A stretch of DNA of 64,000 nt from Chloroflexota bacterium. Its GTDB lineage: Bacteria; Chloroflexota; Dehalococcoidia; Lucifugimonadales; UBA3495. A program made the translations under genes and the position numbers. Each line of letters starts with the position of its first letter. The stretch's first letter is position 1. The notes below the pieces were generated by a model. That model ran no database searches. It saw nothing but the letters and a program-made list of their open reading frames with translations, and was not told the DNA's origin. The DNA lies in the NCBI GenBank assembly GCA_009840135.1, contig VXOH01000036.1, positions 1,720 through 65,719 on the forward strand. Reading direction: 5' to 3'. Below, in pieces: positions 4,994-43,081 of the stretch.

Positions 4994-5031
4994 GCGGCTG
5001 CCTCAGTGGCCGACACTCGCATGCAGCGACG

Positions 5032-6756: not shown

Positions 6757-6799
6757 CTTACCGGCCCTTCAGGCTCAGCCTGAATTGTGAGAAGTATAG

Positions 6800-9637
6800 A
6801 TGCCCGATAACATTACCATTTCCATTGACGGGGTGGAGATAAAGACCCAACCGGGGAAAATGGTGCTGGAAGCGGCTATCGAAGCGGGAATATACATCCC
6901 TTATCTGTGCTACCACCCGGGCATGGACCCCTTTGCCGCCTGCAGGATGTGCGTAGTCTCCGTGGAAGGAGGCAGGGGGTTTCCTGCGGCTTGTACCCTT
7001 CCCGCAGCCGACGGAATGCGCATCCGAAGCGACTCCGAGGACGTGGATGAACTGCGCAGGTCGGTGATGCAGATGCTCATTGCCGAGCATCCTAATGGCT
7101 GTCTTACATGTCACCGTGTGGACATCTGTGGCCCCAGCGATGTTTGCCTAAGGCACGTTTCTGTGAACGACCGTTGTGTCACTTGCCCCAAGAACGAGCG
7201 CTGTGAGTTCAAGGACACGGTTCGCTACCTGGGAATGGAGCTGGAATCCCCTCTGAATTACAAATACAAGCAGGTGCCGCTGGAGGTCTCAGATCCCTTT
7301 TACGACAGGGATTACAACCTGTGCATTGCCTGCGGGCGTTGCGTGCGGGCGTGCGAAGAAATACGTGGCGACGACGCCATTTGTTTCACCGAACGTTCCG
7401 GCAAGGCCCTGATTGGGACGTCGTTTGGCTCTTCCCTGCTGGAGTCGGGCTGCGAATTTTGCGGCGCCTGCATTGATGTGTGCCCGGTGGGCGCGCTGGT
7501 GGAGCGGGACCACAAATGGGAGAAGCCCCGCAGCGTGGAGCAGACCATCTGTCCCCATTGCCCGGTGGGTTGCCAACTTAACCTGGAGCTAGGAGATTCC
7601 GGAGAACTTGTCCGGGTGGTCCCCGAAATTAACGCTCCCTCAAACAGGGGACAGGCTTGCTTTAAGGGGAAATTCGGTCTTGAGTTTCTTAACAGCGGGG
7701 AACGACTGGACAAGCCGCTGATTCGAAAGAACGGGGAGTTGGTGGAATCAAACTGGGATGATGCGCTGGACCTGGTGGCCTCGCGACTGCAGGAATACAA
7801 GGGCGAAGCATTTGCCCTGTTAACGGCCCCTGATTCCACCAACGAAGAGATGTACCTGGCCCAGAAGTTCGCCAGGGTTGCCATGGGCACCAACAGCGTG
7901 GACGTCACTTCGAACCTTTATCCCGAGCTTACCCAGGGGTTGCTTCGAGCTCTGGGCCACGGCGGGGCGACAAATCCCATTTGGGACCTGGAGAAGGCCG
8001 GCAGCGTTCTGGTTTTCAACTCGAACCTGACCGAGGACAACAATGTCCTAGCGCTGCCCATCAAGCGTGCGGCCAAGAACGGGGCCTCCCTCATAATCAT
8101 TGACTCGCGGGAGGTTGAACTCACTCGCCATGCCGATATGTGGCTCCGACCGAGGCCCGGAACCGAGTTGTTGCTTCTCGGCGGTATCCTGCGGGAGGTG
8201 CTCGACCAGGGATTGGTGAAGGAACAATGGGTGGAAGAAAACTGTGAAGATCCCGCTACCCTCTTCTATTACCTGCACAATCTGGACCTGGACGAGGTAG
8301 CCGCGACAACCCAGGTGAGCAGGAACTCCATGGCTCTGGCTGCCGGACAATTCGGTGGCGCGGAATCGAGCGCGGTGTGCTACGGCCTTAACAATGTACC
8401 GTCAGAATTGCAGCGGGATTGCGTAAGCGCCTTGTTGGACCTGGTCCTTTTAACCGGCAACGTGGGCAGGGCCGGGGCTGGCCTTTACCCGGTAAGGCAG
8501 GGAGCCAACGAGCAGGGCTCCTGGGACGTTGGCTGCATTCCCGGCCGGCTGCCCGGTGGCGCTTCTCCGAGAGATGAACGGCGCCGTTCCGAACTTGAAG
8601 AGTTGCTCAATTGTTCCCTTCCCCAGAATCGCGGCTTTGGTGTAACCAATTTTGCCGAGGCCGCCAGGGACGGCATTTTGAAGGCCTTGTTCCTGGTAGG
8701 CGACAGTCCTAACCTTACCAATGGCAACCTGGGCGACGCGGTGACCGCGCTGCAGGAGTTGGACTTCCTGGTGGTCATGGATGCGTTTCTGTCGCCGGCT
8801 GCCCGGGTCGCCGATGTGGTGCTGCCTCGCCGGACCTTCGTGGAAAAGGATGGCACTTTCACGAACCTTGAACGGAGGATTCAACGGCTGAAGCCCGTCC
8901 GGGAATGTGAAGACCAGGGACCGGAAACCGAAAGTGCGGTGTTTGGGCGGCTGGCCCAAAAAATGGGCGCCATGGGGTTTGACTTTCCGTCGGCTGGCGC
9001 AGTTATGGATGAGATTGCTCGGGTGGCGCCATCCTACGCCGGCGTTTCCTATGATCGCCTGGAATCGGAATCCAGGGTCGTGCTGAGGACCGGGTTGGAA
9101 AGCCCCAAGCCTACCCAGATGCTGTACGCCGGACGGGAATACCGCGGTTTACAGTGGCCCGTCTCCGAAGATACAGGGTCTGATACGCCCGTGCTGTACC
9201 AGGAGAGCTTTCCCCTGGGCAAGGCCAATTTAATCGCACCTGAGTTCAGAGTTCCGGAAGACCTGACTGATCCGGACTACCCCCTGTGGTTGGTTCCAGG
9301 CAGGGTGCTCTTGCAGCGGGACCGGGAAACCCGCGTCGAGTTGGAGCAAAGTTCCCGGCGGAACCGTATAGTTCGGGAAGAATTGGTAGAGCTCAGCGGT
9401 ATTGATGCCTCCGCCCAGTCCATACTGGATGGTGACTCGGTTCGTCTGGAGACACCAAGGGGTAGCCTGGCCGGTGTGGCTCGAGTCAGCGATGAGTTGC
9501 CATCGGGAATGGTGGCAATAACTGGCCTGTTCGGACAATTGGCGGTGGATCTTCAGGAATCTGATCATCCCGACCCCATGTCCCAGGCTCCAGGGTTGCA
9601 CGTGACCCCGGCCAGGCTGTTTAAAGTCGCAGAATAG
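6800..9637 (+). CDS. nuoG: NuoG-like Fe-S subunit with a degenerate molybdopterin-oxidoreductase domain (no Cys/Sec Mo ligand)
   Basis: 945 aa. N-terminal 2Fe-2S (YLCYHPGMDPFAACRMCVV), CIACGRCVRACEE, CEFCGACIDVCPVGAL and ICPHCPVGCQLNL. Where formate dehydrogenases carry C-A-R-x-C/U-H, this protein has VTSNLYPE, so it is not a catalytic FDH. No internal TGA. Confidence 0.8.
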   Translation: MPDNITISIDGVEIKTQPGKMVLEAAIEAGIYIPYLCYHPGMDPFAACRMCVVSVEGGRGFPAACTLPAADGMRIRSDSEDVDELRRSVMQMLIAEHPNGCLTCHRVDICGPSDVCLRHVSVNDRCVTCPKNERCEFKDTVRYLGMELESPLNYKYKQVPLEVSDPFYDRDYNLCIACGRCVRACEEIRGDDAICFTERSGKALIGTSFGSSLLESGCEFCGACIDVCPVGALVERDHKWEKPRSVEQTICPHCPVGCQLNLELGDSGELVRVVPEINAPSNRGQACFKGKFGLEFLNSGERLDKPLIRKNGELVESNWDDALDLVASRLQEYKGEAFALLTAPDSTNEEMYLAQKFARVAMGTNSVDVTSNLYPELTQGLLRALGHGGATNPIWDLEKAGSVLVFNSNLTEDNNVLALPIKRAAKNGASLIIIDSREVELTRHADMWLRPRPGTELLLLGGILREVLDQGLVKEQWVEENCEDPATLFYYLHNLDLDEVAATTQVSRNSMALAAGQFGGAESSAVCYGLNNVPSELQRDCVSALLDLVLLTGNVGRAGAGLYPVRQGANEQGSWDVGCIPGRLPGGASPRDERRRSELEELLNCSLPQNRGFGVTNFAEAARDGILKALFLVGDSPNLTNGNLGDAVTALQELDFLVVMDAFLSPAARVADVVLPRRTFVEKDGTFTNLERRIQRLKPVRECEDQGPETESAVFGRLAQKMGAMGFDFPSAGAVMDEIARVAPSYAGVSYDRLESESRVVLRTGLESPKPTQMLYAGREYRGLQWPVSEDTGSDTPVLYQESFPLGKANLIAPEFRVPEDLTDPDYPLWLVPGRVLLQRDRETRVELEQSSRRNRIVREELVELSGIDASAQSILDGDSVRLETPRGSLAGVARVSDELPSGMVAITGLFGQLAVDLQESDHPDPMSQAPGLHVTPARLFKVAE

Positions 9638-13661: not shown

Positions 13662-14018
13662 ATGAGCTCAGCCGTGTTTTACTGGTGGCCGCGTTGATCA
13701 TCCTGTCGGAAAGCGAGAGAGTTGCTCTTGCAGAAAGGACTGGAACTGGAGGAACGGGACTACTTTAAAGACCCCCTTAACGAAACGGAACTCATGGATC
13801 TGGCTTCGATGGCGTCTCTTTCTGACCTGTTCGCGTGGCGCAGTCCCAGTTTCAAAAAATTGGGCCTGCCCAGCCAGGACATTTCCGAGCAGCAGATGGT
13901 CAAGTTGATCCTGGATGAGCCCAGGTTGCTGCGCCGGCCGATCACCAGGCTGGCAGACAGACTGATCATCGGGTCGAGCCCAAAGCAGATGGAGCAGGAA
14001 CTGGCCAACCTGCCGTAA
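13662..14018 (+). CDS. ArsC/Spx/YffB-family small redox protein with predicted selenocysteine (USSC motif; TGA at 13695-13697)
   Basis: The ORF track calls only 13722-14018 (TTG). The same frame extends to ATG 13662, preceded by GGAGGA 13653-13658. It reads MSSAVFYWWPR[TGA]SSCRKARELLLQKGLELEERDYFKDPL..., matching the family motif (I)YG.K.C..CRKA..WL...G.....D. with TGA at the first Cys. Restored length is 118 aa. Confidence 0.72.
13713..13731 (+). promoter_or_regulatory. Candidate SECIS-like hairpin for the TGA at 13695
   Basis: GCGAGAG (13713-13719) pairs with CUCUUGC (13725-13731): 7 bp including one G-U. The loop is AGUUG. The stem starts 16 nt after the UGA. Confidence 0.45.
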
Positions 14019-19901: not shown

Positions 19902-22721
19902 CTAGTTCACGGGGCTTGTTGGTCCCGCGTCGTTGCGTTGGTAGGTATAGTATTCCGAGTTGAACCAGTCTGCATCCAGCCGTCGCAGAACCACGTAACT
20001 GAGCACATCATGCCAGTTTTTCGCCGTTGTAGCAGCTTCGCGGAAGTATGCGAGGTCCTGGGTGATTTCTTCCGCCGGGTTTTCTTCCTGGCGATGTTCG
20101 CCCGGTCTTCGGTAGTTTTCAGGGAACCACAGAAGATTGCGTCGCGGTCCCGATTGAGTGTAACCCATCATGGAGCCTGGGTCGGACGGGTTGTTGTGGG
20201 CTGCCACCAGAATCACTGGATCCCCAACGTCGCCTGTCAGGGCGCTGCATCCTCCTGCCCCCCCTTCGTCCTTAAAGCACCCAAAGGTGAGGCTTCCTTC
20301 CCTTTCCTGGTGGCGCGTGTACCACTGGAAAGGATACCAGATGTCGTAGTCAACCCTGGGCGGCAGCGACGACTCCGAATCTATCCGGCGGTCGAAGTAG
20401 TTTTCGTCCAGTTCTTGATGGCTGTACAGCAAGTCCTTGCTTCCCTGGGCATAGACGAGGATCTCCCGGCGGGAGTCATCAAAGGTGTATGATGCCTGGA
20501 ATGCAGTCCAGGCGGTAAAAGCCAGCAACAGCGAAGCAATTCCCAGGCCAATCAGGGGAGGGCTGTCGGATATGCCCGTCTTTCTCGCCAGCCATGCCGT
20601 TGCCAGGGCCGACACGATGGCGACTACTGCAGCAGCAAGACCAATGTACATTTTCCAATGGCCGTCTCCGGTCAGGAGCAGGGCTGCTGTCACACCGAAA
20701 ATTATGGTCACCTGCGGCCCAATCAGCAGAGCCGTTGTCACCGGCCAGGTTGGGCGTACCAACAACCGGCGCCAGGGGATTCTGTCAAACCACTCCCCCA
20801 GCAACTTGCCGGCCAGGAATATGAAGGGCACGGTGATGTTGACCAGCAGCCAGGGCATCTTTTCGCTGGCTACCGTATAGGCAAGCAGATTTACCAGGGC
20901 CCAGAAGGCCAGAGCCATACCCAGTCGGTCCCTTCGCTTTATGAATACGACGGCACCCAAAATGCCGAATATGGTGGGCAGGAATTCGTACACCGACATG
21001 CCCACAAAATAGTAATACCAGGGTTGGTTGCCGCGGGCGACCTCCTGCTGGGCTATCCAGTAACCCATACCCTGCCAGGCGCCGCTGAAAATTCCCGCCG
21101 GATTGGTGAAAAAGGTGGTAAACAGGGTTGCCCAAACGGTGTAAAAGATGCCGGCACAGGCCAACCAGACTCCTCCTCGCCAAAGTATGCCAACCAGCAG
21201 AGAAACGGTTGCAGCAGCCAGGATAACGGCCGACGCCACCAGGTAATTCAGCGGCAAAGCGTTTCCGTTACTCTCCACATGGATGCCCTCGGGCAACAGT
21301 CCGGCAAGAAGGGAATCCACCTGGATTGTCGGCAAGAACAGAACGGAGAATACCAGCGATCCCAGCAAAGGCAGGAAAATGAGCGGCAAGCTATGCCTCC
21401 AGGGGAAACGGGCATAGATGAACCATCCCAGGGCTACCGCGACCAGGCATAATGCGCCAAGATAGTCCAGCCAGTTTCCTTGTGGCGCCACCATAGCGAG
21501 GAAAATGGCCGCGGCGGCGGCGACCGGCGGCACAACCCCCAATATGCGTCGTCCCTCTACTGCGCCCAACCACCGTCCGTACCAGACGTAAGCCGCCAGC
21601 ATCATCAGGGCCATGCCACCCACTACCCACGCGGGGAACGCATACAGTGGCAGTTCAATGAAAGGTTCACCCCATAGGGGGGCTCCAACAATGCCCTGGC
21701 TCACTCCGTCCCTTCCTACCAGGTCCAGCCCGATGGACTCACCCAGATTTGTAACCGCAGCATCGTCCAGCGCCAGTCCGGCCACCTTGACGCCCAATTC
21801 CCGAATTAGTTCAACGCCGGCGGACCACTGGGGCAGGGTGAGGGTAACCAGCAACAGGAGGAAACCTGCGGCCGGCGTCACCCAGATCGCTCTCAGCAGG
21901 CCCCAGGCCCTCTTTGGAGGGCTTTCAACCTTGTAACCATGGTCAACGTCCGGTTCAGACGGTAATCCCTGCGTGGGCGAGCCGCCGTTGCCCTCGATCC
22001 CCGCGCCTCCGCTGTCAGCAGCGTCAGGTTCCCTGGCAGCTTTTTCCCTGGAGAAAGGAATGGCCAGGAGAAGGGCCAAAGCCCCGAAAATGGCGGCAAT
22101 TATGTAGGCCGTCTCCTTGCTGGCAAATGCGATGGCCAGGAGTGAGGAAGAGATGTAAAGGAATCTGTTCCTGGGGTTATGGCAATAGTGCCACAAGAGC
22201 ATAAAAAGGGAGACGGTCAGGACCGCCATGATGATGTCGTTGCGGCCAAATCGGCTGAAATATAACAACGACGGTGACACAGCCAGCATCAGACCTGTAA
22301 TGAATGCGCCGGCTCGGCCCAATTGGCTGCGCAAAAAGCAAGGAAGGATAACCAGAACGGTACCGAAAATCACATAGGCGAGGCGCGCAACAAAGTCGGA
22401 GTCACCCAGCAGGCGAAGGAAGGCCGCTACCAGTTCAATCTGAAACGGCCCATGCATCCAGGGGGAATGAACGAACCCTTCGAAATTGGACAGCCGCCAG
22501 GAATAGTAGAGATGAATTGCCTCGTCGTAGTGCATGGTGCGCCCGCTGAGATCCCAGAGGCGCATAACCAGGGCGGCAAGGCCGAGGCCCAGGAACGCCG
22601 CCACGTATCTTCCCTGGCTGGCGCCAACAAGGAAGAGGACTGCCCTCCCCGCCCAGGATTGGCGGAGGGGGACGCCGGATGAGTTCGTGCCTTGTTGGGT
22701 GCTATTGTCGTGGGCCGCCAT
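19902..22721 (-). CDS. GT-C-fold membrane glycosyltransferase-like protein (TIGR03663 / PMT_2-like)
   Basis: 939 aa, highly polytopic. N-terminal RLWDLSGRTMHYDEAIH (acidic DE motif in the first loop). Sits 14 nt downstream of the YYY-domain gene. Confidence 0.7.
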   Translation of the reverse strand: MAAHDNSTQQGTNSSGVPLRQSWAGRAVLFLVGASQGRYVAAFLGLGLAALVMRLWDLSGRTMHYDEAIHLYYSWRLSNFEGFVHSPWMHGPFQIELVAAFLRLLGDSDFVARLAYVIFGTVLVILPCFLRSQLGRAGAFITGLMLAVSPSLLYFSRFGRNDIIMAVLTVSLFMLLWHYCHNPRNRFLYISSSLLAIAFASKETAYIIAAIFGALALLLAIPFSREKAAREPDAADSGGAGIEGNGGSPTQGLPSEPDVDHGYKVESPPKRAWGLLRAIWVTPAAGFLLLLVTLTLPQWSAGVELIRELGVKVAGLALDDAAVTNLGESIGLDLVGRDGVSQGIVGAPLWGEPFIELPLYAFPAWVVGGMALMMLAAYVWYGRWLGAVEGRRILGVVPPVAAAAAIFLAMVAPQGNWLDYLGALCLVAVALGWFIYARFPWRHSLPLIFLPLLGSLVFSVLFLPTIQVDSLLAGLLPEGIHVESNGNALPLNYLVASAVILAAATVSLLVGILWRGGVWLACAGIFYTVWATLFTTFFTNPAGIFSGAWQGMGYWIAQQEVARGNQPWYYYFVGMSVYEFLPTIFGILGAVVFIKRRDRLGMALAFWALVNLLAYTVASEKMPWLLVNITVPFIFLAGKLLGEWFDRIPWRRLLVRPTWPVTTALLIGPQVTIIFGVTAALLLTGDGHWKMYIGLAAAVVAIVSALATAWLARKTGISDSPPLIGLGIASLLLAFTAWTAFQASYTFDDSRREILVYAQGSKDLLYSHQELDENYFDRRIDSESSLPPRVDYDIWYPFQWYTRHQEREGSLTFGCFKDEGGAGGCSALTGDVGDPVILVAAHNNPSDPGSMMGYTQSGPRRNLLWFPENYRRPGEHRQEENPAEEITQDLAYFREAATTAKNWHDVLSYVVLRRLDADWFNSEYYTYQRNDAGPTSPVN

Positions 22722-22735
22722 GGCGCTTCATTCTA

Positions 22736-25204
22736 TCATTTGAAGGGTGAGTAGGAGATCTTTTCATAGATGACTACGCTGTCGCGCTTGAACGCGGTTT
22801 CGAAAACGCCGTCCAGCGCCGCGGGTTGGCTGACCCCGTACTTGGCCCTCTCTCGGTGGCCCATGTAAACGTAGCGAACATCATAGAAGGAGAGTAGTCG
22901 GTAAACGACCAGGGGGTCGTCGCTCTGATAAATTCGGGCTATGTCCTCCTCCCTGCCCTGAAAGGTCTCGGCTGTTCCCCTCCACTGGTGTTCATGTCCC
23001 TTCCAGCCCAATATGGTTGGCCTTCCCGTGGCCGCCGAAACCCGGCTGAATTCTGAGTAATCTTCACCAACGGCCTCGACAATTCTGCCGGGCGCGGCTT
23101 CGTCCCGGAGCCAGGTAATGGCAGCATACTCGCCCGGATGGCTGTTCTTGATGAATTGCAACCCGTCCAGGGTATTTGAACTGAAATCGTGGTGTTCACC
23201 CAGGACTCCCGTTCGGTCAAGGGTTGCTCCCACGGGATAGTAGAGCGCACCAATCAGCAGCAAACAAGCTGCTCCGCCCAGGGCCAATTGGGCCCCCCGA
23301 CCGAGGACTTGCAGCTGCTTGAAGCGCGAGACGCAGTAGTAGATTCCGAATGCCCCGACAATGCCGAGCAGGAGCCAAGCCTGGTAATAGACCTTGAATA
23401 CCGTATTCATCCGGTTTCCAAAGAAGTCAGCCAGGTGGAACAATTCGGCCCCACTCAGCAGGTAGGCTGCGGCGGCCAATAACAAGAGTGGAAAAATCGT
23501 CCCGCTGCTTTTCCCTCTTAGAGCCAGGCTCAATGCCGCATATCCGGACAAGGCAGCCACCGCCAGTCCGGGCACCACGGTAACTGTCCTGATAACCAGC
23601 AACCCCGTCAGTGAATCAGTCTCCCGAGTCAGCGCCCCCCAGGTAGCTGCCAAAACCAGCCAAAGGAGCCAGGGAAGAACAGCCACCATTACCGCCATCA
23701 CGATGAGCGATGCTTCTTGCTTTGCTGGCCTGGGCCAGTCCTGGAGTCGACGCCATAGAAATAGAAGTCCCAGGAAGGCAGGGCCCCCCATTACCAGCAC
23801 AAAGTGAATCGGTCTTGTGCCAGGCCCGAGGTAGGGAAGGATACCCGATACCTGGGAGCTGAGGGTAACGTAGAAAGGCAGGTACAACAGAACCGAAAGC
23901 ACCAGCAACGGGACCACAAGGCTCGCCGAGGCAGCGACTGAACCCATCAACTTGCGCGTCCCGAAGTCGTCCCCGCTTTCGTTTGCATCGCCGGTTGACT
24001 CACGCGACAGTAGCGCTTTCGCCAGGATAACTGCGCCCACTATTCCGCCATAGACCGGAAAGTCCCAGGAATTTACAAAGGCCAAAGCTCCCAGGGCCAG
24101 GGCCAATAATCCGAAGTGCCAGGAGTTTCTTAGTATCCAGACGCGGCCTATTGGTTCCGGCAGAAAAAGGACATTCAAGGCCAGCGCCAGGACCAACAGC
24201 AGGAAGGGCAGGTTTAATACGTGGGAATGCAGGTCTCCCAGCAGGAAACTGAAAAACGGGAACTCGGTTATGGTGTAGTCCAGGCTGACTCCGCCCCGCA
24301 GGGTGTCTATTACCCGGGTCGCTCGCCACCACCACCAGTTGCTGTCCGGGAAAAAGCCGCCGCCGGTGGTCCCTTCCAAGCCCTTGATACCCGCCCATTG
24401 CCAGAATTCAAGAGGAGCCCAACCCCGTACCTGGACCAGTTCCAGCACTCCTTCCAGGTTTCCGGCCACCGCTATTAGGGTTGGAGCGAAGAGACCGAAG
24501 AGTATTCCAGAGCGAAAACCTCCTCCGGACAGTCGTATCAGGTTATAGGTCAGGCCAAATGAACCCGCGACCACCAGGGCGGGAATGGTAGCCATGGCCA
24601 GATTGTAGCCCGCGTTGGAAGTTATGCCAGCCAGCTTCATGGGCAACGCCATCATGAAGTGACCGAAGTAGTAGTAGCTAATGGAATAGCCGGAGAGCCA
24701 GGGGTCTTCGGGAGGAAACGATGGGCTTTGCAGTATGCTGGTCAGAAAGGCAAAGTCCATAGGTTTTTCTGTGTGGTTTATCGCCGGAACTTCGGAGATT
24801 ACAAAGACCCAGGCCGTAAAGGTTGCCAGGAACAAACCTTCCACGATGAGTATGTACCGCCATTGCTCCCTCAGATACTCCTCAATTTCCGGCCAGCGCC
24901 GGTAATACAACCAGGCGAATACGACCCCACCGACCAGCAGGATTGCGGCGATGGTAGCTGGAGAATTGGGCAATACGCCGGTCAGCCCAAGTACCCACAA
25001 GGTGTAGCCGGCGAGCAACAATGCCAGAACTTTGGCCAGGGAATAGCCCCGGTCGGGCAGAGCTTTGAACAGGAAGATGGCCATAGGGGTGGCCAGCAGT
25101 CCCATTAGTTGGATGGTGAGGAACCAGGCCAGGTGATCAGACACGGGCGCCAACCCCGTAAGGGAGTTTCGTCCAAATATGCTGGGAAGAAACCCCGTGG
25201 GCAA
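22736..25204 (-). CDS. YYY-domain (DUF2298 / chlor_Arch_YYY-type) polytopic membrane protein
   Basis: 822 aa with the signature GYSISYYYFGH. The C-terminal soluble part is homologous to the C-terminus of the 1553-aa protein at 59061-63722. Confidence 0.75.
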   Translation of the reverse strand: MPTGFLPSIFGRNSLTGLAPVSDHLAWFLTIQLMGLLATPMAIFLFKALPDRGYSLAKVLALLLAGYTLWVLGLTGVLPNSPATIAAILLVGGVVFAWLYYRRWPEIEEYLREQWRYILIVEGLFLATFTAWVFVISEVPAINHTEKPMDFAFLTSILQSPSFPPEDPWLSGYSISYYYFGHFMMALPMKLAGITSNAGYNLAMATIPALVVAGSFGLTYNLIRLSGGGFRSGILFGLFAPTLIAVAGNLEGVLELVQVRGWAPLEFWQWAGIKGLEGTTGGGFFPDSNWWWWRATRVIDTLRGGVSLDYTITEFPFFSFLLGDLHSHVLNLPFLLLVLALALNVLFLPEPIGRVWILRNSWHFGLLALALGALAFVNSWDFPVYGGIVGAVILAKALLSRESTGDANESGDDFGTRKLMGSVAASASLVVPLLVLSVLLYLPFYVTLSSQVSGILPYLGPGTRPIHFVLVMGGPAFLGLLFLWRRLQDWPRPAKQEASLIVMAVMVAVLPWLLWLVLAATWGALTRETDSLTGLLVIRTVTVVPGLAVAALSGYAALSLALRGKSSGTIFPLLLLAAAAYLLSGAELFHLADFFGNRMNTVFKVYYQAWLLLGIVGAFGIYYCVSRFKQLQVLGRGAQLALGGAACLLLIGALYYPVGATLDRTGVLGEHHDFSSNTLDGLQFIKNSHPGEYAAITWLRDEAAPGRIVEAVGEDYSEFSRVSAATGRPTILGWKGHEHQWRGTAETFQGREEDIARIYQSDDPLVVYRLLSFYDVRYVYMGHRERAKYGVSQPAALDGVFETAFKRDSVVIYEKISYSPFK

Positions 25205-25265
25205 TCAGGAGGTAGTGGGATAAAGTCATAGCCCGCACCGGCGGATGAATGGTTGCCCTGCCTGG

Positions 25266-26222
25266 TCAGGGTACCGGGGCAAGTAGAGAATCCACGAATT
25301 GGGTGGCGTCAAAGGGAGCGATGTCCTCCAGGGACTCACCGGTGCCAATGAAGAGAATCGGCACATTCAGTTCATGCTTGATAGCCAGCGCGATTCCTCC
25401 CCGCGCTGTGCCGTCCAGCTTAGCCAGGAATATTCCGGTACATCCAACCGCCTGGGTGAATGCCTGGGCCTGGGCCAGACCATTCAGACCGGTTGTTGCG
25501 TCCAGGGTCAGGATGACCTGCTGCGGCGCCGAGGAATCAAGCCGGTTCAATACGCGGTGGACTTTTTTCAACTCCTCCATCAAATTGGTACGGGTGTGCA
25601 GCCTGCCGGCAGTGTCAACAATCAATACGTCGGCGCCGCGGGCCCGGCTGGCCTGGTAAGCATCATAGGCGACGGCCCCTGGGTCGGCACCGGGCTGGTG
25701 GCTGATTACTTCTACGCCCACCCGGTCTCCGAGGATTTCCAACTGCTCTTCTGCAGCGGCCCGGAAGGTGTCTGCGGCCCCCAGCACCACCTTTTTTCCT
25801 TCGCGGGTGAAATGGTGGGCCAGCTTGGCTATGCTGGTGGTCTTTCCCACCCCATTCACTCCGACGACAAGAATCACGTAGGGCGAAGACACTGAGGAAA
25901 AATCCTGCCACGCGTCCGAGCCGTCATCAGCCTGAAGGTCTTGAACCAGGGATGCCTTGAGCCGGTCAAATGCAGTGTCGGCGTCGGAAATGCCCTCGTC
26001 TTGAACGTGCGTTTTCAGATCCTCGATTATTCGCAGGGAGGCTTCTACACCTACATCGGCGGAAATCAGGATTTCTTCGAGCTCTTCCCAAACCGCTTCA
26101 TCCAGGTCAGAGGACCTGAGAACATCGAGGATGCGGCCGAACCACCGTTCCCTGCTTCGCTTGACGCCTTGTTCGGTCCTGGCCTGGTTGTCTTCCCTGT
26201 TTCGCTGGAAGAATGAGAGCAT
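25266..26222 (-). CDS. ftsY: Signal recognition particle receptor FtsY
   Basis: 318 aa. [31 protein letters not shown] and [11 protein letters not shown]. The N-terminus MLSFFQR...FGRILDVL resembles short FtsY starts. Confidence 0.9.
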
Positions 26223-27067
26223 GGCTTTTCCCGAGTGCTGGTTGCAGAGTTGGTACTGTCTGAATCAGGATTTTCCAGGAATGCTTCGGCGGTATCCGCA
26301 AGGTGCCCGCCGGATTGCGCCGGCGCAATTGGCTCCCCCGCTGCCATGGACTGAGGGAAATCGGCGACCTCGCATTGGTCCAGTGCTACCTCGGCGGCGG
26401 CTCGTTCAGCATCGGTTTTCTTGCTGCCCTTGCCCAGTCCCAGAACCCGTTCATCTACCAGTACTTCCACCGTGAAAACAGGTTGGTGGTCGGGTCCCTC
26501 GGTGGAAACCAGCCTGTAATGAGGTGTGGAGAGCCCCATCCCCTGTACCATTTCCTGTAACCGGGACTTGGGATTCTCGATTCGACCCCGGCGCCGTCCG
26601 ATATCTTCTATCTCCGGTCCGAGAGCCCTGAGCGCGAATCCCCGTGCGGCCTCGTATCCCTGGTCCAGGTAGATAGCGGCTACCACCGACTCAAAGGCTT
26701 CTTCGAGTATGGATTCCTTGTCCTGGCCGCCTGACTCCAATTCTCCCTTTCCCAGGGAAAGGTGCTTTCCCATGGACAAGCGGCGTGCCGCTCGGGCCAG
26801 GGATGGACGGCAAACGACAAAAGAGCGACCCTTGGTTAGTTCGCCCTCGGTAATCCCGGGGAGTTTGTGATAAAGCTCGGTGGAAACTATGAGCTCAAGA
26901 ACCGCGTCCCCCAGAAACTCCATGCGCTCATAGGAATCCAGGGGTGACCCGCCGTGCTCATTGAGGTAGGAACGATGGACCAGGGCCTGCTTTAGCAAAC
27001 CCTGGTCCTTAAAGGTCAGGCCGAGATTGGATTCCAGGTCTTCTATTGCCAAATCGCTACCGGGCAA
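26066..27067 (-). CDS. rnc: Ribonuclease III with a ~95-aa low-complexity C-terminal tail
   Basis: 333 aa, TTG start. HRSY, ERMEFLGDAVLE catalytic signature and a dsRBD (PKSRLQE...GSKKTDAERAAAEVAL). The tail overlaps the 5' 157 nt of ftsY in another frame. Confidence 0.85.
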   Translation of the reverse strand: MPGSDLAIEDLESNLGLTFKDQGLLKQALVHRSYLNEHGGSPLDSYERMEFLGDAVLELIVSTELYHKLPGITEGELTKGRSFVVCRPSLARAARRLSMGKHLSLGKGELESGGQDKESILEEAFESVVAAIYLDQGYEAARGFALRALGPEIEDIGRRRGRIENPKSRLQEMVQGMGLSTPHYRLVSTEGPDHQPVFTVEVLVDERVLGLGKGSKKTDAERAAAEVALDQCEVADFPQSMAAGEPIAPAQSGGHLADTAEAFLENPDSDSTNSATSTREKPCSHSSSETGKTTRPGPNKASSEAGNGGSAASSMFSGPLTWMKRFGKSSKKS

Positions 27068-27088
27068 TTTCGGTCCCTGGAGCCAACC

Positions 27089-27721
27089 CTAGATCAGGCC
27101 GTGGGGCCAGGGCGGAGATGGACGCTTTACTTCTCCAACGTGCTGGGCATCGGTGATCACCCGAGTCAGGGACTCGTAGATCTCGCCGGACTGCTCCGCC
27201 GGTGGAATGTGCATCTTCACGAAAGCGACACCGCCATTCGGAGCCACGTAAGTAGGCACACCAAAAGCGCCGTACTCTTCAACGGCCTCCGTGTGGCTTT
27301 CACCAATTTCCCTGAGCAGGTCAGGGTCGGCGAGGTCCTCGCGGAACCGGGCCATGTCTATGCCCGAATTCTTGACCGCTTCCTCCATGACTTCCATCTC
27401 GGTGAGGCTCCGGCGTTCTTCATGCCTGAGCTTCAACAAAGCAAGGAAGAAAGACTCGAAAGCGTCCTTGCCCTGCCGCTTGGCCGCCAAGCCGGCACGA
27501 TGGGCCAGCAGGGTATTGTCGGAGCCGTCAAGAGCGCCGGGCTGTTCCCAATACTTGAACTCGTCCCCTTTGTCGCTGTTTACCTGCTCCAGGGAGAAGG
27601 GCTTCCAGTCAATATTTACCTCTTGTCCAGTGGTTTCCCGTACCTGCGCCAGCCACATGGCAGCGTTGTACACGAAGGGTCAACGGAAGTCGTAAAACGT
27701 CTTGAAATCCGCTTCGGCCAT
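27089..27721 (-). CDS. DsbA-family (single-Cys CPxA/V-type) protein with predicted selenocysteine (UPFV; TGA at 27682-27680)
   Basis: The ORF track calls 27089-27673 (GTG). The same frame extends to ATG 27721-27719, with AGGAGG (complement of 27729-27734) 7 nt upstream. It reads MAEADFKTFYDFR[TGA]PFVYNAAMWLAQVRE...IDWKPFSLEQVN, matching F.D..CP..Y....W plus the F/MSL..LN block of this DsbA subfamily, with TGA at the Cys. Restored length is 210 aa. Confidence 0.68.
27647..27662 (-). promoter_or_regulatory. Candidate SECIS-like hairpin for the TGA at 27682-27680
   Basis: On the minus strand, UGCCA (27662-27658) pairs with UGGCG (27651-27647): 5 bp including one G-U. The loop is UGUGGC. The stem starts 18 nt after the UGA. 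It is short and needs folding. Confidence 0.3.
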
Positions 27722-27748
27722 AACGACACCTCCTGTCTGATTGGCACG

Positions 27749-27777
27749 ATTCTAGCATATTGACACGGCGTAGCCAA
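27749..27777 (-). promoter_or_regulatory. Candidate promoter for the Sec-DsbA-like gene
   Basis: Minus strand: TTGGCT (complement of 27772-27777), 17-nt spacer, TAGAAT (complement of 27749-27754) preceded by TGc. Same ATGCTAGAAT string as at 2642-2651. Confidence 0.45.
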
Positions 27778-27829
27778 CCTCATGGGCCTTTCCCCGAAGC
27801 TGTCATCAGTCCGCCGCCGAAACTCCCTG

Positions 27830-27838
27830 TGGTATAAT
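27830..27838 (+). promoter_or_regulatory. Extended -10 element (TGgTATAAT) only 10 nt upstream of the cca ATG
   Basis: TG at 27830-27831 and TATAAT at 27833-27838, with the ATG at 27849. This implies a leaderless or near-leaderless transcript, or else a downstream start (GTG 27861). Confidence 0.45.
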
Positions 27839-27848
27839 TTCTCCCACC

Positions 27849-29168
27849 ATGAACCCTCCCGTGGATTCCCCCCAGTCACTCCTTGACTCCGCTCCGCCTA
27901 TAGAGGAATACCTGGGTGGCGCGTTTCAGCCGTTGGTACGAACCCTCACCGGTCTGGCCGAATCTCACAATGTCACCGTTTGCCTGGTTGGCGGACCGGT
28001 GCGTGATTGGCTCCTGGGCCTGCCGGCCAAAGACCTGGATTTCGTTGTAGAGGGAAATGCGCCTGAACTGGCCCGGGAATTGGCTTACCAAACCCGTGGT
28101 GAAGCGGTGGTACATGGGCGATTTGGAACGGCTACCGTATCCAGTGGAAATCTTCGGGTGGACCTGGCAACCGCCCGGAGAGAGAGCTACACGGCGCCAG
28201 GGGCATTGCCTCGGGTTGAGCCATCAACCATTTCAGACGACCTGGCGCGCCGGGACTTTTCCATTAACGCTATGGCCGTGCCGCTGTTCGGAGCTGACAA
28301 GACCCTGCTGGATCCGCAGGGCGGTCTGGAAGACCTGGCCAGAAAATCAATAAGGATACTGCACTCCCAGAGTTTTGAGGACGATCCTACCCGGTTGTTT
28401 CGGGCGGTTCGATACGAGCAACGCCTGGGGTTTGTCCTGGAAAAGACTACCGAATCCCGCCTGGTGGATGCGGTGAAAGGCGGTTGCCTGACCTCAGTGA
28501 GCGGCGACCGGATACGCCATGAACTGCAGAAGATGTTCGAGGAGCTACAACCATCCAATGCTCTGTGCCGGGCCATTGATTTGGGTGTATTGAGCTTCTT
28601 GAATCCAACTGAGTCCTTCAGAAACTCGCTTTATAGCTGGGAAACAAAGGGGCCCATAGTTGACCCGGAGGGAGAGGCCGGGGTCCTCAGTTGGCTGGCC
28701 GCCCTATGCTATCCAATTTCGGAGGCCGATGGAGACCTTCTGGCCCGCCGCCTTAATATGCCTTCTGCCTGGAAAAGTGTGCTGAGCGAGTCCGTTGCCA
28801 TCAAGAAAACTGTTGGGAGGCTGGACAACCCAGACCTGCTTCCCTCCGAGTTGGCCGAATTACTTGAGCATAGGTCCCTGGATGCGCTGTTTGTTGCCGC
28901 CGCAATAGTGGAAAGGCCCATTGCGGTAAGCAACATACTGCGTTATTTGAGAGAATTGAGGCATATCAGTCCATCTCTCACGGGGCACGATCTCATACAG
29001 TTGGGGATTCCGGGCGGCGTAGCCGTAGGTCAAGCTCTTGCCAGGCTGCGCAGGGCGCGGTTGGACCGGCAGGTGAATACCGAAGAAGAAGAGCGGCTTT
29101 GGGTCAAGAACCTGATAGCAATGGAATCGCTTGATTCAAAGAAGGAAAGGACCGGCTTCCGGCGTTAA
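27849..29168 (+). CDS. cca: CCA-adding tRNA nucleotidyltransferase / poly(A) polymerase family
   Basis: 439 aa. LVGGPVRDWLLG...KDLDFVV head-domain motif and RRDFSINAMA. Confidence 0.85.
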   Translation: MNPPVDSPQSLLDSAPPIEEYLGGAFQPLVRTLTGLAESHNVTVCLVGGPVRDWLLGLPAKDLDFVVEGNAPELARELAYQTRGEAVVHGRFGTATVSSGNLRVDLATARRESYTAPGALPRVEPSTISDDLARRDFSINAMAVPLFGADKTLLDPQGGLEDLARKSIRILHSQSFEDDPTRLFRAVRYEQRLGFVLEKTTESRLVDAVKGGCLTSVSGDRIRHELQKMFEELQPSNALCRAIDLGVLSFLNPTESFRNSLYSWETKGPIVDPEGEAGVLSWLAALCYPISEADGDLLARRLNMPSAWKSVLSESVAIKKTVGRLDNPDLLPSELAELLEHRSLDALFVAAAIVERPIAVSNILRYLRELRHISPSLTGHDLIQLGIPGGVAVGQALARLRRARLDRQVNTEEEERLWVKNLIAMESLDSKKERTGFRR

Positions 29169-41326: not shown

Positions 41327-41923
41327 ATGGATCCTGCCCAAATAGCGCCGATAATGGGACGCCTTTGGTCTCCCCTGGCTGCCGTCACCAGCCATCATGA
41401 CGGTAAGTTCAACGCCCAGATTGCAGTAGCTATCTCGGCAGCCTCCATAGTGCCTGACCGCCCCCGGGTAGTGGTGCAGATTTACAAAGGGAACTATAGC
41501 CACGGCCTCATCTGGGCAAACGGTTCCTTTGCCCTGAATTTCTTGACTGCCCACCAGCTGAACTTCATCAAGGAGTTTGGGCTGGCCTCCGGCGCCGACC
41601 GGAACAAGCTTGAAGGGTTCGCGTGGCAAATGGGGGAACTGGGCAACCCGATATTCAAGGAATGTGCCGGTCACCTGGAATGCCAGGTTATCAACGCCAT
41701 GGATGGCGGGGACATGACCTGCTTTCTGGCAAATGTAGTTGATGGGGCCGCTTTTGCTGACAAAATGCCCCTGACCTGGCGGGAGGCGCGTCGTCTGATT
41801 CCCAAAGAGTGGAACGATGCTTGGGAAAGCCGCATAGGCGCCGAAATAGAGGTTTCTAGAAAGAAGATGGATCAGGTGGACGCCGCCGCCTGGCACAATC
41901 CCGGCAATCGGGCAGGAAACTGA
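41327..41923 (+). CDS. Flavin reductase-like (FMN-binding split-barrel) protein
   Basis: 198 aa. PLAAVTSHHDGKFNAQIAV..SAASIVP and NFL. Ends with TGA. Confidence 0.7.
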   Translation: MDPAQIAPIMGRLWSPLAAVTSHHDGKFNAQIAVAISAASIVPDRPRVVVQIYKGNYSHGLIWANGSFALNFLTAHQLNFIKEFGLASGADRNKLEGFAWQMGELGNPIFKECAGHLECQVINAMDGGDMTCFLANVVDGAAFADKMPLTWREARRLIPKEWNDAWESRIGAEIEVSRKKMDQVDAAAWHNPGNRAGN

Positions 41924-41932
41924 AGTGAGCAG

Positions 41933-43081
41933 ATGGATTCGAACATAGAACGCGTAATCACCCAGATGCACGATACGCCCCACAAGTCCGTGCTGGTTGT
42001 AGCGGGAGCCGGCAGCAGCGCTATGTCCTGGTTGTTGGGTGTCTCCGGAGCGTCCCGCACGATTCTCGAGACCCTGGTACCCTACGGTCGCCTGTCTATG
42101 ATTGACCTGGTTGGAGAGGAACCGTCTCAGTATGTGTCCGAACAGAATGCCAGGGCTATGGCCTACGCGGCCTATTGCAGAGGGATGGATTTGCGGGAGG
42201 ACGACTCCCCGGTGGTTGGCGTGGCATGTACGGCCACTATCGCTACCGACCGGCCCAAGCGGGGCGACCACCGCGCCTGCATCGCCACCTGGGACGAGAG
42301 GCGAACATTTGGCTGCAACCTGGTCATTGACAAGGGAAAGCGCGACAGAACCGGCGAGGAGGAGCTGGTCAGCCGCCTGCTGATACAGGCCATGGCCAGG
42401 TCTTTTGGCGTGGAATCCGAATTTGAGATCGGTTTTACGGCGGCTGAGAGTCCGGAAGTAACCTCTGCCAACCACGACAGCCCGGTCCAAAGACTCCTAC
42501 GGGGGGAGGTTGATCTGGTTAAAGCCGGGCTGGAAGGTAAATTGTCTGCGGTTGAGTCGGGAAAACACGAGCCAGCGGCGGTGCTTCCCGGCTCTTTCAA
42601 TCCCCTGCATGAAGGCCATATGCGCCTGGCAGCCGTGGCCCGGGCAATGACCGGCATGGACCTGGTTTACGAACTGGCTGTATTAAACGTTGACAAGCCT
42701 CCTTTAGAAGAGGAAGAAGTCCTGCGGCGTATCGCCGGCATTGGGGGAGGCGCTCCCGTAGCTCTGACCAGGACGCCAACTTTCCGCCTCAAGGCGCGGA
42801 TATTCCCTGGAAGCGTGTTCGTAATAGGTTGGGACACGATGGTTCGCCTGATTGATCCAAAATATTACGGCGGGTCGGAGGCGGACATGCTGACGGCGCT
42901 GGCGGAAATCTGGGCGCAGGGCTGCCGATTCCTGGTGGCGGGGAGGGAGAACCAGGGTTCGTTCAGGACGCTGGACGAGGTGGCTGTCCCGCAAGGATTT
43001 CAACCCCTGTTCCAGGCTATACCCGAGGACAAATTTCGGGCCGATATCTCTTCGACTGAGTTGAGGAATAGGGGCAGGTAG
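41933..43081 (+). CDS. Two-domain protein: CinA/PncC-like N-terminal domain fused to an HxGH nucleotidyltransferase (NMN/NaMN adenylyltransferase-like) domain
   Basis: 382 aa. The N-terminal half resembles the CinA C-terminal domain (VAGAGSSAMSWLLGVSGASRT...VSEQNARAMA...GVACTATIATD). The C-terminal half carries GSFNPLHEGH. Confidence 0.55.
   Translation: MDSNIERVITQMHDTPHKSVLVVAGAGSSAMSWLLGVSGASRTILETLVPYGRLSMIDLVGEEPSQYVSEQNARAMAYAAYCRGMDLREDDSPVVGVACTATIATDRPKRGDHRACIATWDERRTFGCNLVIDKGKRDRTGEEELVSRLLIQAMARSFGVESEFEIGFTAAESPEVTSANHDSPVQRLLRGEVDLVKAGLEGKLSAVESGKHEPAAVLPGSFNPLHEGHMRLAAVARAMTGMDLVYELAVLNVDKPPLEEEEVLRRIAGIGGGAPVALTRTPTFRLKARIFPGSVFVIGWDTMVRLIDPKYYGGSEADMLTALAEIWAQGCRFLVAGRENQGSFRTLDEVAVPQGFQPLFQAIPEDKFRADISSTELRNRGR

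What the first reader, a model, noticed from the sequence alone, without database searches (positions are those of the whole stretch)
27089..27721. Third recoded gene (minus strand): single-Sec DsbA-like protein with a U-P-F-V motif
**What the sequence shows.**
- The ORF track starts at GTG 27673 (MYNAAMWLAQ...).
- On the minus strand the same frame continues upstream: AGGAGG, a 7-nt spacer, ATG (27721-27719), then MAEADFKTFYDFR-TGA(27682-27680)-PFVYNAAMWL.
- DsbA-like proteins of the single-cysteine subfamily read F.D..C-P-(W/F)-(A/V)-(W/Y)....W, followed by a (F/M)SL..(L/V)N block. That block is present here as KPFSLEQVN.
- The TGA therefore sits at the only catalytic Cys. Unlike the other two genes, the resolving Cys is absent (Val).
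- A short hairpin (27662-27647, loop UGUGGC) begins 18 nt after the UGA.
- The gene has its own promoter-like element, TTGGCT-17-TGcTAGAAT.
Basis: partly seen in the sequence, partly recalled or inferred. Interest (0 to 1): 0.72.

Follow-up and report, generated by a model that had tools for sequence, protein, structure and literature searches.

The report
Miscalled single-selenocysteine DsbA-like gene
This is a real selenoprotein gene, a cytoplasmic DsbA-like redox protein whose only active-site cysteine is replaced by UGA-encoded selenocysteine; databases truncate it, but it belongs to a known class.

Summary
The observation and its interpretation hold. On the minus strand, AGGAGG, a 7-nt spacer and ATG 27721 open a 210-codon frame with one in-frame TGA (27682-27680). 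That codon sits at the active-site position of a DSBA-like thioredoxin domain.

- Full-length homologs, including a syntenic ortholog, read FYDFR-C-PFVYNA there.
- The 80 best of 393 relatives found in species-representative Dehalococcoidia/SAR202 genomes all keep the TGA, the 13 upstream codons (with normal third-position wobble), the start codon and the ribosome-binding site.
- Three more divergent relatives keep the TGA too.
- A 7-bp hairpin (27665-27647, loop AUGU, 21 nt after the UGA) is preserved by compensatory changes at two pairs and by register shifts.
- It is weaker or absent in Cys forms, and hairpins after true stop-TGAs in the window are weaker.
- Two other genes in the window (FrnE-like U-PW-C, ArsC-like U-SS-C) show the same arrangement.

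Sec machinery is not in the window; support is at class level, from the literature.

The protein belongs to a large one-Cys DsbA-like clade (closest structure: Deinococcus DR2335, function unknown). DsbA-like selenoproteins, including a catalogued DxxUP form, are already known. This is a new member of a known kind.

The parts
27089..27721 (-). Complete coding sequence of the DsbA-like selenoprotein: 210 codons including Sec14, stop TAG 27091-27089.
   Evidence: Translation. Pfam DSBA PF01323, 8.8e-18, residues 8-164. Full-length Cys homologs are 66-68% identical over 100% of the length.
27680..27682 (-). In-frame TGA read as selenocysteine, at the position of the only active-site Cys (U-P-F-V).
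   Evidence: Cys (TGC/TGT) at this codon in 6 Cys-form loci, one of them syntenic. TGA in all 80 species-representative genomes examined and in 4 further loci.
27719..27721 (-). ATG start codon.
   Evidence: ATG or GTG lies exactly 13 codons before the TGA in 77 of 82 sequences. Codon-position wobble begins here and is absent upstream.
27729..27734 (-). Ribosome-binding site AGGAGG, 7 nt before the ATG.
   Evidence: at least 5 of 6 matches in 82 of 82 sequences, with a 6-7 nt spacer in 73 of 82.
27749..27777 (-). Promoter-like TTGGCT-17-(TGc)TAGAAT.
   Evidence: The only hit of the consensus scan, against 0.2 expected. Conserved among close relatives within otherwise variable intergenic DNA. 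Function is inferred.
27647..27665 (-). Conserved SECIS-like hairpin core CGCUGCC-AUGU-GGC-U-GGCG: 7 bp, bulged U at 27651, apical loop 27658-27655, loop 21 nt after the UGA.
   Evidence: All 26 distinct Sec variants fold it at -8.6 to -11.4 kcal/mol, against -4.7 to -7.0 for Cys forms. Two pairs are fully compensated, UA37/CG31 and GC54/AU14. GC3 bias is excluded. The same architecture, with new pair types, occurs in divergent L089.
27636..27675 (-). Extended lower stem around the core hairpin in the window sequence (-16.4 kcal/mol). It is not conserved across species.
   Evidence: The alignment shows that the outer pairs vary without compensation.
27251..27262 (-). Codons for G154-V155-P156-T157, the thioredoxin-fold cis-proline loop that faces the active site.
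   Evidence: Invariant in the alignments. In the model of the Cys ortholog it precedes strand 157-159. The cis conformation is inferred from what is known of the family.

Best explanation
The gene at 27721-27089 (minus strand) encodes a 210-residue cytoplasmic DsbA-like thioredoxin-fold protein.

Shown or strongly supported:
- Translation starts at ATG 27721.
- UGA 27682-27680 is decoded as selenocysteine.
- Decoding is directed by a short hairpin that lies inside the coding sequence, 14 nt downstream of the UGA.
- Sec14 occupies the nucleophilic position at the N-terminus of helix 1 (motif U-P-F-V), opposite the GVPT cis-proline loop.
- There is no second (resolving) Cys.

Inferred mechanism:
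- The selenolate attacks a disulfide, a mixed disulfide or an oxidised sulfur on a substrate.
- This forms a selenenyl-sulfide intermediate.
- That intermediate must be resolved by an external thiol (a low-molecular-weight thiol or a partner protein), as in monothiol glutaredoxin, mycoredoxin or bacilliredoxin chemistry.
- The protein would therefore not act as a dithiol oxidase like periplasmic DsbA.

More speculative: coenzyme A may be that thiol. This rests only on CoaE fusions of the same domain in three sequence clusters.
For: Reading frame and family:
- Frame, start codon and RBS.
- The Pfam DSBA match spans the TGA position.

Sec/Cys pairing:
- 210-aa homologs have Cys at residue 14.
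- One of them, L083, has the same gene order: PolyA_pol | DsbA-like | RNase III | FtsY | DUF2298.

Conservation of the TGA:
- TGA is kept in 80 of 80 species representatives, 62-93% identical.
- It is also kept in divergent lineages: L088, L089/L090 and L091.
- A database 'W' at this position is in fact TGA.

The upstream codons are coding:
- Entropy by codon position is 0.42/0.38/1.08, against 0.49/0.33/1.01 downstream.
- It is flat at about 1.7 upstream of the ATG.

Hairpin:
- Every distinct Sec variant forms it.
- 89.7% of cells are paired, against 83.9% in shuffles (0 of 500 reach it) and at most 65% when the partners are slid.
- Pairs 24-42 and 28-37 are fully compensated.
- Normalised mutual information is 1.0 only between predicted partners, and GC3 runs in the opposite direction.

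Within the window:
- Three Sec-UGAs have hairpins of -15.5 to -22.5 kcal/mol with loops 20-22 nt downstream.
- Eleven true stop-UGAs score 0 to -10.5.
- TGA is an ordinary stop for MutS, OtsB, FtsY, RNase III and others.

Fold:
- AF2 model of the Cys ortholog has pLDDT 88 and DsbA topology.
- The best structural match is DR2335, TM 0.77, with sequence E = 1e-21.

One-Cys clade:
- The motif is CP[FYW][VAST] in nearly all full-length representatives.

CoA lead:
- CoaE fusions.

Class-level Sec use:
- PMC13326102 Table 2; PMC5029168 supplement.
Against: - No tRNA-Sec, selA, selB or selD is in the window or in about 1 Mb of related loci. Sec decoding in this genome is therefore inferred, not shown.
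- The window's apical loop is AUGU. This has no G in the first two loop positions, as the published bSECIS model requires. Relatives with GUGU or GUCU loops do meet that requirement.
- The loop and much of the stem are built from conserved Ala-Met/Val-Trp-Leu codons, so part of the structure comes for free.
- Cys forms still fold a weaker, different hairpin, and only 6 Cys-form DNAs were available.
- No experiment exists for any member of the one-Cys clade (PMC8945050), so the catalytic cycle is inference.
- coaE is not adjacent to the unfused genes.
Confidence: 0.88

Rival explanations
1. The TGA is a true stop. The functional product is the 194-aa protein that starts at GTG 27673, as annotated in GenBank, and the upstream 13 codons are a remnant or a leader peptide.
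For: GenBank and most metagenome gene callers annotate the gene this way (P0001 and many 189-194-aa entries).
Against: - The truncated product would lack strand 1 and the whole active-site motif.
- The 13 upstream codons show coding-type wobble, and a conserved start and RBS sit at a fixed distance in 82 sequences.
- Cys orthologs are full length.
- A remnant would not keep the TGA in 80 species while synonymous sites vary.
Confidence: 0.03
2. The UGA is read as a standard amino acid (Trp, Gly or Cys) through code reassignment or near-cognate readthrough, not as selenocysteine.
For: One public gene call translates the codon as W (P0020). Sec machinery was not seen in the window.
Against: - TGA ends about a third of the confidently identified genes in the window, including MutS, OtsB, FtsY and RNase III.
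- The codon aligns with the nucleophilic Cys of a redox motif in all three recoded genes.
- Each has a hairpin at the spacing typical of SelB-dependent decoding, which true stops lack.
- The class is documented as selenoprotein-rich (PMC13326102).
Confidence: 0.03
3. Sec is inserted, but the 27665-27647 hairpin is only a by-product of the conserved A-(M/V)-W-L codons. The real recoding signal would then be something else.
For: - The loop and inner stem are fixed by Met/Val-Trp codons.
- RNAalifold on the ungapped alignment found almost nothing.
- The single-sequence fold is not significant.
- The window's loop lacks a G in positions 1-2.
- Cys forms also make a small hairpin.
Against: - Synonymous third positions 24 and 42 covary perfectly (31 C-G, 37 U-A, none unpaired). 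This holds within the Ala, Thr and Ser codon contexts and runs against GC3.
- Ala to Asn (GCC to AAC) is accompanied by a synonymous CUG to UUG change.
- L089 has a different peptide (AAVWLA) yet the same architecture and spacing, at -14.7 kcal/mol.
- Cys forms replace the 3' stem codon with GAG, or lose the hairpin.
Confidence: 0.08

Closest known systems
DR2335 of Deinococcus radiodurans (PDB 7DK9, and 7DKA for the C24S mutant): a one-Cys DsbA-like protein
   Same: - Same clade by sequence (profile E = 1e-21, aligned over residues 7-203).
- Same clade by fold (Foldseek E = 3e-12, TM 0.77-0.78).
- Single nucleophilic residue in F-D-F-x-C-P-Y-A.
- Shared FSLxQxN, RHED and GxFGxPT blocks.
- Cytoplasmic, with no signal peptide.
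   Different: DR2335 has Cys, the window protein has Sec. They are only about 30% identical. DR2335 has no reported function (PMC8945050), so it offers no mechanism to borrow.
DsbA-like selenoprotein form 1 (UxxC; Sargasso Sea 2005, PMC1088965) and FrnE
   Same: PF01323 domain, with Sec at the first position of the active-site motif and a bacterial in-ORF SECIS. The window itself holds such a gene at 3634-4269 (U-PW-C).
   Different: Form 1 keeps the resolving Cys and can cycle through an internal selenenyl-sulfide. Here the fourth position is Val, so no internal partner exists.
DsbA-like selenoprotein form 2, motif DxxUP (review PMC13188914, citing Peng et al. 2016)
   Same: PF01323, one Sec, and the window reads D-F-R-U-P.
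   Different: [quoted passage not shown] No crotonase domain was seen in this clade; the fusions found are with CoaE. Whether the two are the same is therefore unproven.
Rv2466c (mycoredoxin-2), DsbM, GST-kappa and HCCA isomerase: cytosolic DsbA-fold enzymes that work with a small thiol
   Same: Same fold (TM 0.6-0.7), and a Pfam Rv2466c-like match of 37.9 bits. All are cytosolic and depend on an external thiol, as proposed here.
   Different: Rv2466c and DsbM have CPWC-type dithiol motifs. GST-kappa and HCCA isomerase use Ser. Sequence identity is 16-20%.
E. coli fdhF-type bacterial SECIS and the consensus bSECIS model
   Same: A stem-loop inside the ORF just after the UGA: 7-bp stem, 4-nt loop containing GU, a bulged U, loop 21 nt from the UGA, MFE below -7.5 kcal/mol.
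   Different: The window's loop, AUGU, has its G in position 3 rather than position 1 or 2. The bulge is on the 3' side. No Rfam family matches it.

Membership tests
Bacterial selenoprotein gene (SelB/SECIS-dependent UGA recoding) | In-frame UGA aligned with Cys in homologs (a Sec/Cys pair) | tested here: met
   Cys (TGC/TGT) at the same codon in 210-aa homologs, including the syntenic L083.
Bacterial selenoprotein gene (SelB/SECIS-dependent UGA recoding) | Coding conservation on both sides of the UGA | tested here: met
   Third-position wobble is the same upstream and downstream. Start codon and RBS are conserved in 82 sequences. TGA is kept in 80 of 80 species.
Bacterial selenoprotein gene (SelB/SECIS-dependent UGA recoding) | bSECIS model: 3-9 nt apical loop, 4-16 bp upper stem, MFE <= -7.5 kcal/mol, 16-37 nt from UGA to loop | tested here: met
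   4-nt loop, 7-bp stem, -9.2 kcal/mol for the core (-16.4 extended), 21 nt spacing. Criteria taken from PMC13188914.
Bacterial selenoprotein gene (SelB/SECIS-dependent UGA recoding) | bSECIS model: G in one of the first two apical-loop positions | tested here: inconclusive
   The window and about half of the relatives have AUGU (G in position 3). The others have GUGU or GUCU, which meet the criterion.
Bacterial selenoprotein gene (SelB/SECIS-dependent UGA recoding) | Structure supported by covariation | tested here: met
   Two fully compensated pairs, 0 of 500 shuffles reach the observed score, slid controls are lower, and GC3 is excluded.
Bacterial selenoprotein gene (SelB/SECIS-dependent UGA recoding) | tRNA-Sec, SelA, SelB and SelD in the same genome | not testable with these tools
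   Absent from the 64-kb window and the related loci. The rest of the genome could not be reached. Only class-level support is available (PMC13326102, PMC5029168).
Bacterial selenoprotein gene (SelB/SECIS-dependent UGA recoding) | Selenium in the protein | not testable with these tools
   Needs 75Se labelling or mass spectrometry.
DSBA-like thioredoxin domain (Pfam PF01323) | Profile score above the curated cut-off, and the DsbA fold (thioredoxin core with a helical insert) | tested here: met
   65.2 bits against a cut-off of 25.6. The model of the Cys ortholog has the order b-a-b, helical insert, b-b-a. The top PDB matches are all DsbA-fold.
Classical DsbA/FrnE dithiol oxidoreductase | CxxC (or UxxC) active site with a resolving Cys | tested here: not met
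   The motif is U-P-F-V. The fourth position is V, A, S or T across the clade.
Classical periplasmic DsbA | Signal peptide and export | tested here: not met
   The N-terminus, MAEADFKTFYDFR, runs straight into strand 1 with no hydrophobic leader. This is by inspection only; no predictor was run.
One-Cys DsbA-like clade (DR2335 type) | Significant similarity to DR2335 and a single conserved nucleophile in [FY]D[YF]xCP[FYW][VAST] | tested here: met
   E = 1e-21 to 7DK9, TM 0.77, and the motif table.
DsbA-like selenoprotein form 2 (DxxUP) | PF01323 with a single Sec in D-x-x-U-P | tested here: met
   D11-F-R-U14-P15. Motif taken from the review table.
DsbA-like selenoprotein form 2 (DxxUP) | Homology to the catalogued representative MDP6049977.1 (crotonase/enoyl-CoA hydratase label) | not testable with these tools
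   The accession could not be fetched. No crotonase domain was found in the clade; the fusions are with CoaE.
Rv2466c-like mycothiol-dependent reductase (PF22234) | Profile match plus a CPWC dithiol motif | tested here: not met
   The profile scores 37.9 bits against a cut-off of 27, but the second Cys is absent and identity to Rv2466c is about 17%.

The most novel reading that the evidence does not exclude
The one-Cys/one-Sec DsbA-like clade may be a coenzyme-A-dependent redoxin. It would remove CoA from CoAlated proteins, or use CoA-SH to resolve its Se-S intermediate, and SAR202 bacteria would have upgraded it to selenocysteine. The only evidence is the recurrent fusion of this domain to dephospho-CoA kinase (CoaE) in three sequence clusters. 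The literature held here names only the thioredoxin-like YtpP and TrxA of Bacillus subtilis as deCoAlating enzymes (PMC10136147).
Probability: 0.1. Interest if true: 0.65.

Novelty: new member of a known kind. Interest (0 to 1): 0.35.

Why it matters
Annotation: the gene is truncated in GenBank (hypothetical protein F4X65_03475, 194 aa). Most of the best-scoring homologs listed in public protein sets are truncated in the same way, and no NCBIfam model covers the family. A conserved SAR202/Dehalococcoidia selenoprotein is therefore largely invisible to standard pipelines.

Biology:
- Among the loci examined, this abundant marine and sponge-associated lineage uses Sec far more often than Cys at the single catalytic residue of a one-Cys DsbA-fold enzyme whose function is unknown in any organism.
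- A single-selenol active site with no resolving thiol restricts the possible chemistry to partner-thiol-dependent mechanisms.
- The CoaE fusions give a testable candidate partner.

The short, well-defined hairpin, with natural compensatory variants, is also a convenient minimal SECIS for studying SelB recognition in Chloroflexota.

None of this overturns current understanding. It extends a known catalogue.

Tried and rejected
- Single-sequence folding of 27690-27620 was not significant (z = -0.52).
- RNAalifold on the ungapped 74-sequence set gave almost no structure (-0.16), because three pairing registers coexist. The structure became clear only from per-sequence folds and explicit pair counts.
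- Rfam at gathering thresholds found nothing in the window.
- ARAGORN found no tRNA, and hence no tRNA-Sec, in the window or in 60 related loci.
- NCBIfam gave no hit for the U-to-C protein.
- The metagenome scan seeded on Cys-form peptides returned a single locus, so Cys-form DNA had to be fetched one protein at a time.
The syntenic Cys ortholog P0032 was modelled instead.
- A candidate readthrough at 19938-21452 translated to junk and was dropped.
- The 41327-43081 pair, joined by one TGA, looks like two adjacent genes.
- GC3 bias as an explanation for the C-G/U-A covariation was tested and rejected.
- I expected the ~415-aa relatives to be crotonase fusions, matching the review's 'form 2' label. 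They are CoaE fusions.
- coaE was not found next to the unfused genes.
- A text search for the PDB code 7DK9 found no paper describing that structure.

Full report
**1. Observation**

- An in-frame TAG (27754-27752) closes the frame upstream.
- AGGAGG (27734-27729) is followed by a 7-nt spacer and ATG 27721-27719.
- The frame then reads MAEADFKTFYDFR, TGA (27682-27680), PFVYNAAMWLAQ..., and runs to TAG 27091-27089.
- The mechanical ORF list begins at GTG 27673, which is also the start annotated in GenBank (P0001, 'hypothetical protein F4X65_03475', 194 aa).
- The promoter-like TTGGCT-17-TGcTAGAAT is the only consensus hit in 26950-27900 (0.2 expected by chance). It is conserved among close relatives, although the surrounding intergenic DNA varies.

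**2. Is the upstream piece part of the protein?**

With U replaced by C, the 210-residue protein matches Pfam DSBA (PF01323) at 8.8e-18. The match covers residues 8-164, so it runs across residue 14.

A database search found two kinds of homolog.
- A minority are 210 aa long, cover 100% of the query at 65-68% identity, and read MADSDFTIFYDFR-C-PFVYNA.
- Most of the best hits listed are 189-194 aa long and begin at the Val or Met just after the motif.

One entry shows W at the position (P0020), but its DNA has TGA there (L081).

One Cys form (P0032, locus L083) has the same gene order as the window: a divergent PolyA_pol/CCA-adding enzyme, then DsbA-like, RNase III, FtsY, DUF2298 and PMT_2 (window genes). 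It is therefore a positional ortholog, not a paralog.

**3. How conserved is the TGA?**

A scan of one genome per species found 393 relatives. The best 80 are all Dehalococcoidia, SAR202 or Chloroflexota MAGs, 62-93% identical. Every one has TGA at this codon and a conserved upstream peptide.

Across 82 sequences:
- The 13 upstream codons have entropy 0.42/0.38/1.08 at codon positions 1/2/3. The downstream codons give 0.49/0.33/1.01, essentially the same.
- The region upstream of the ATG is flat at about 1.7.
- ATG or GTG lies exactly 13 codons before the TGA in 77 of 82.
- An AGGAGG match of at least 5 of 6 is present in all 82, with a 6-7 nt spacer in 73 of them.

A profile of the Cys forms, searched against 1.84 billion cluster representatives, found 252 clusters at E < 1e-10. 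Many of them start at profile position 17-22. I checked three of these at the DNA level, and all hide a TGA at the same codon: L088 FYDYT-U-PFVY; L089/L090 DVYCDYT-U-PYVH, with synteny kept; and L091 DYI-U-PFAY.

**4. The RNA signal**

Folding the window sequence alone is uninformative (z = -0.52). RNAalifold on the ungapped set also failed. Per-sequence folds explain why.
- All 26 distinct Sec variants make a 7-bp hairpin at -8.6 to -11.4 kcal/mol, but in three pairing registers.
- The six Cys-form DNAs give only a different 5-bp hairpin with a 3-nt loop, or none (-4.7 to -7.0 kcal/mol).

In the window the structure is CGCUGCC-AUGU-GGC-U-GGCG (27665-27647).

Pair counts on 68 distinct sequences (alignment A3) gave:
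- 89.7% of cells paired, against 83.9% in shuffles (0 of 500 shuffles reach the observed value) and at most 65% in slid controls.
- The closing pair fully compensated: U-A 37, C-G 31, none unpaired.
- An inner pair fully compensated: G-C 54, A-U 14.
- All 'unpaired' cells belong to the register-shifted variants. In GCA...CUG-[AU]CG the bulged U pairs instead. In GCC-AAC...UUG-GCA, Ala to Asn is accompanied by a synonymous CUG to UUG change.

The closing pair joins two synonymous third positions. It holds within the Ala, Thr and Ser codon contexts.

GC3 bias cannot explain it. Normalised mutual information is 1.0 only between the predicted partners, and GC3 elsewhere runs the opposite way.

The divergent L089 encodes a different peptide (AAVWLA). 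It still has the same architecture and spacing, with new pair types (GGCGGCC-GUCU-GGC-U-CGCC, -14.7 kcal/mol).

Against the published bSECIS criteria (PMC13188914):
- Loop size, stem length, MFE and the 21-nt spacing are all met.
- 'G in loop position 1 or 2' is met by the GUGU and GUCU variants but not by the window's AUGU.

**5. Is the organism a Sec user?**

The window has no tRNA genes (so no tRNA-Sec), no Rfam hit, and no SelA, SelB or SelD. The direct test could not be run. Indirect evidence is as follows.
- Two more genes in the window have TGA at a catalytic Cys position. One is a FrnE/DsbA-like gene at 3634-4269(+), WYDYI-U-PWC (Pfam DSBA 9e-31). The other is an ArsC/Spx-like gene at 13662-14018(+), FYWWPR-U-SSC-RKA (Pfam ArsC 7e-18).
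- All three Sec-UGAs have their best hairpin with the loop 20-22 nt downstream, at -15.5 to -22.5 kcal/mol. Eleven genuine stop-UGAs of Pfam-verified genes score 0 to -10.5 on the same measure.
- TGA, TAG and TAA are all used as ordinary stops, which excludes a reassigned genetic code.
- BSepDB defines Sec users by SelA/SelB/SelD. It lists two Dehalococcoidia MAGs, with 49 and 46 selenoprotein genes, among the ten richest bacteria (PMC13326102). Other Chloroflexi are known Sec users (PMC5029168 supplement).

**6. What the protein is**

The AF2 model of the syntenic Cys ortholog (pLDDT 88) has DsbA topology. The nucleophile sits at the start of helix 15-31. The invariant GVPT loop (window 27262-27251) precedes strand 157-159.

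The closest solved structure is DR2335 of Deinococcus radiodurans, 7DK9 and 7DKA (E = 1e-21 by sequence; TM 0.77 by fold). It is a one-Cys DsbA-like protein for which a 2022 review reports no functional data (PMC8945050). Next come Rv2466c, YjbH, GST-kappa, HCCA isomerase and DsbM, which are all cytosolic members of the fold.

Across the clade the motif is [FY]D[YF]x-C-P-[FYW]-[VAST], and a second Cys is rare. There is no signal peptide by inspection.

The protein is therefore not a DsbA-type dithiol oxidase. The most likely chemistry is a monothiol-type (here monoselenol) cycle with an external thiol; this step is inferred.

Three clusters fuse this domain to dephospho-CoA kinase (CoaE, e-46 to e-50), which points to CoA as a candidate partner. 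However, coaE is not adjacent to the unfused genes, so this stays a lead.

**7. Comparison with what is known, and novelty**

- DsbA-like selenoproteins with UxxC have been known since 2005 (PMC1088965).
- A 2026 review lists a 'form 2' with one Sec in DxxUP (PMC13188914). The window's D-F-R-U-P fits that motif, but the representative accession could not be retrieved and its 'crotonase' label was not reproduced here.
- No NCBIfam model covers the family.

The finding is a correct detection of a miscalled selenoprotein gene that belongs to a known kind. Three points go beyond the catalogue:
- Sec predominates over Cys among the SAR202 orthologs examined.
- The SECIS is unusually compact and has clear natural covariation.
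- The CoaE fusion offers a lead in a clade with no assigned function.

**8. Verdict**

- Confidence that this is a genuine Sec-encoding gene is about 0.9.
- Confidence in the monothiol-type mechanism is moderate.
- Confidence in CoA as the partner is low (about 0.1).
- Interest is 0.35.

Noticed in passing
window 3634-4269 (+), TGA 3706-3708: A second recoded gene: a FrnE/DsbA-like protein reading VIVWYDYI-U-PWC-YVG (Pfam DSBA 9e-31 with U replaced by C). A strong hairpin has its loop (GGAGA) 20 nt after the UGA (-22.5 kcal/mol). It matches the known 'DsbA-like form 1' UxxC type.
   Followed up: partly
window 13662-14018 (+), TGA 13695-13697: A third recoded gene: an ArsC/Spx-family protein reading FYWWPR-U-SSC-RKA (Pfam ArsC 7e-18). 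Its hairpin loop (AGUUG) lies 22 nt after the UGA (-15.5 kcal/mol).
   Followed up: partly
P0125, P0131, P0180 (locus L092 for P0125): Fusions of about 415 aa that join dephospho-CoA kinase (CoaE) to a C-terminal one-Cys DsbA-like domain, in three separate 50%-identity clusters. This is a possible functional link to coenzyme A.
   Followed up: partly
window 27089-27673 (-); P0001; P0020/L081: Public annotation errors. GenBank calls this gene as a 194-aa hypothetical protein (F4X65_03475) starting after the TGA. One ENA gene call translated the TGA as Trp. Most of the best-scoring homologs listed in the protein search are N-terminally truncated in the same way.
   Followed up: yes
window 22736-29168; L083, L089, L090: The gene order is conserved from sponge and marine SAR202 to a divergent groundwater lineage: a divergent CCA-adding/PolyA_pol gene, then DsbA-like, then RNase III (then FtsY and DUF2298 in SAR202). 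Only 21 nt separate the DsbA-like stop from the RNase III start, which suggests co-transcription.
   Followed up: partly
window 41327-43081 (+), TGA 41921: A flavin-reductase-like ORF and a cytidylyltransferase-like ORF lie in the same frame, separated by a single TGA. They are probably just adjacent genes, but this was not tested for readthrough.
   Followed up: no
window 4463-9637 (+): NuoE-like and NuoF-like genes are followed by a 945-aa NuoG/FdhA-like molybdopterin oxidoreductase. This looks like an NAD-linked formate-dehydrogenase-type module. The ORF is uninterrupted, so it would be a non-Sec form in a Sec-using organism.
   Followed up: no
window 19902-25204 (-) and 59061-63722 (+): The window contains two sets of very large PMT_2 / DUF2298 membrane glycosyltransferase-like proteins: two separate genes in one place and a single 1553-aa fusion in the other.
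   Followed up: no
L091 1-60: The metagenome contig begins with a Nextera transposase adapter remnant (AGATGTGTATAAGAGACAG) directly in front of the gene, so its 5' end is an artefact.
   Followed up: no
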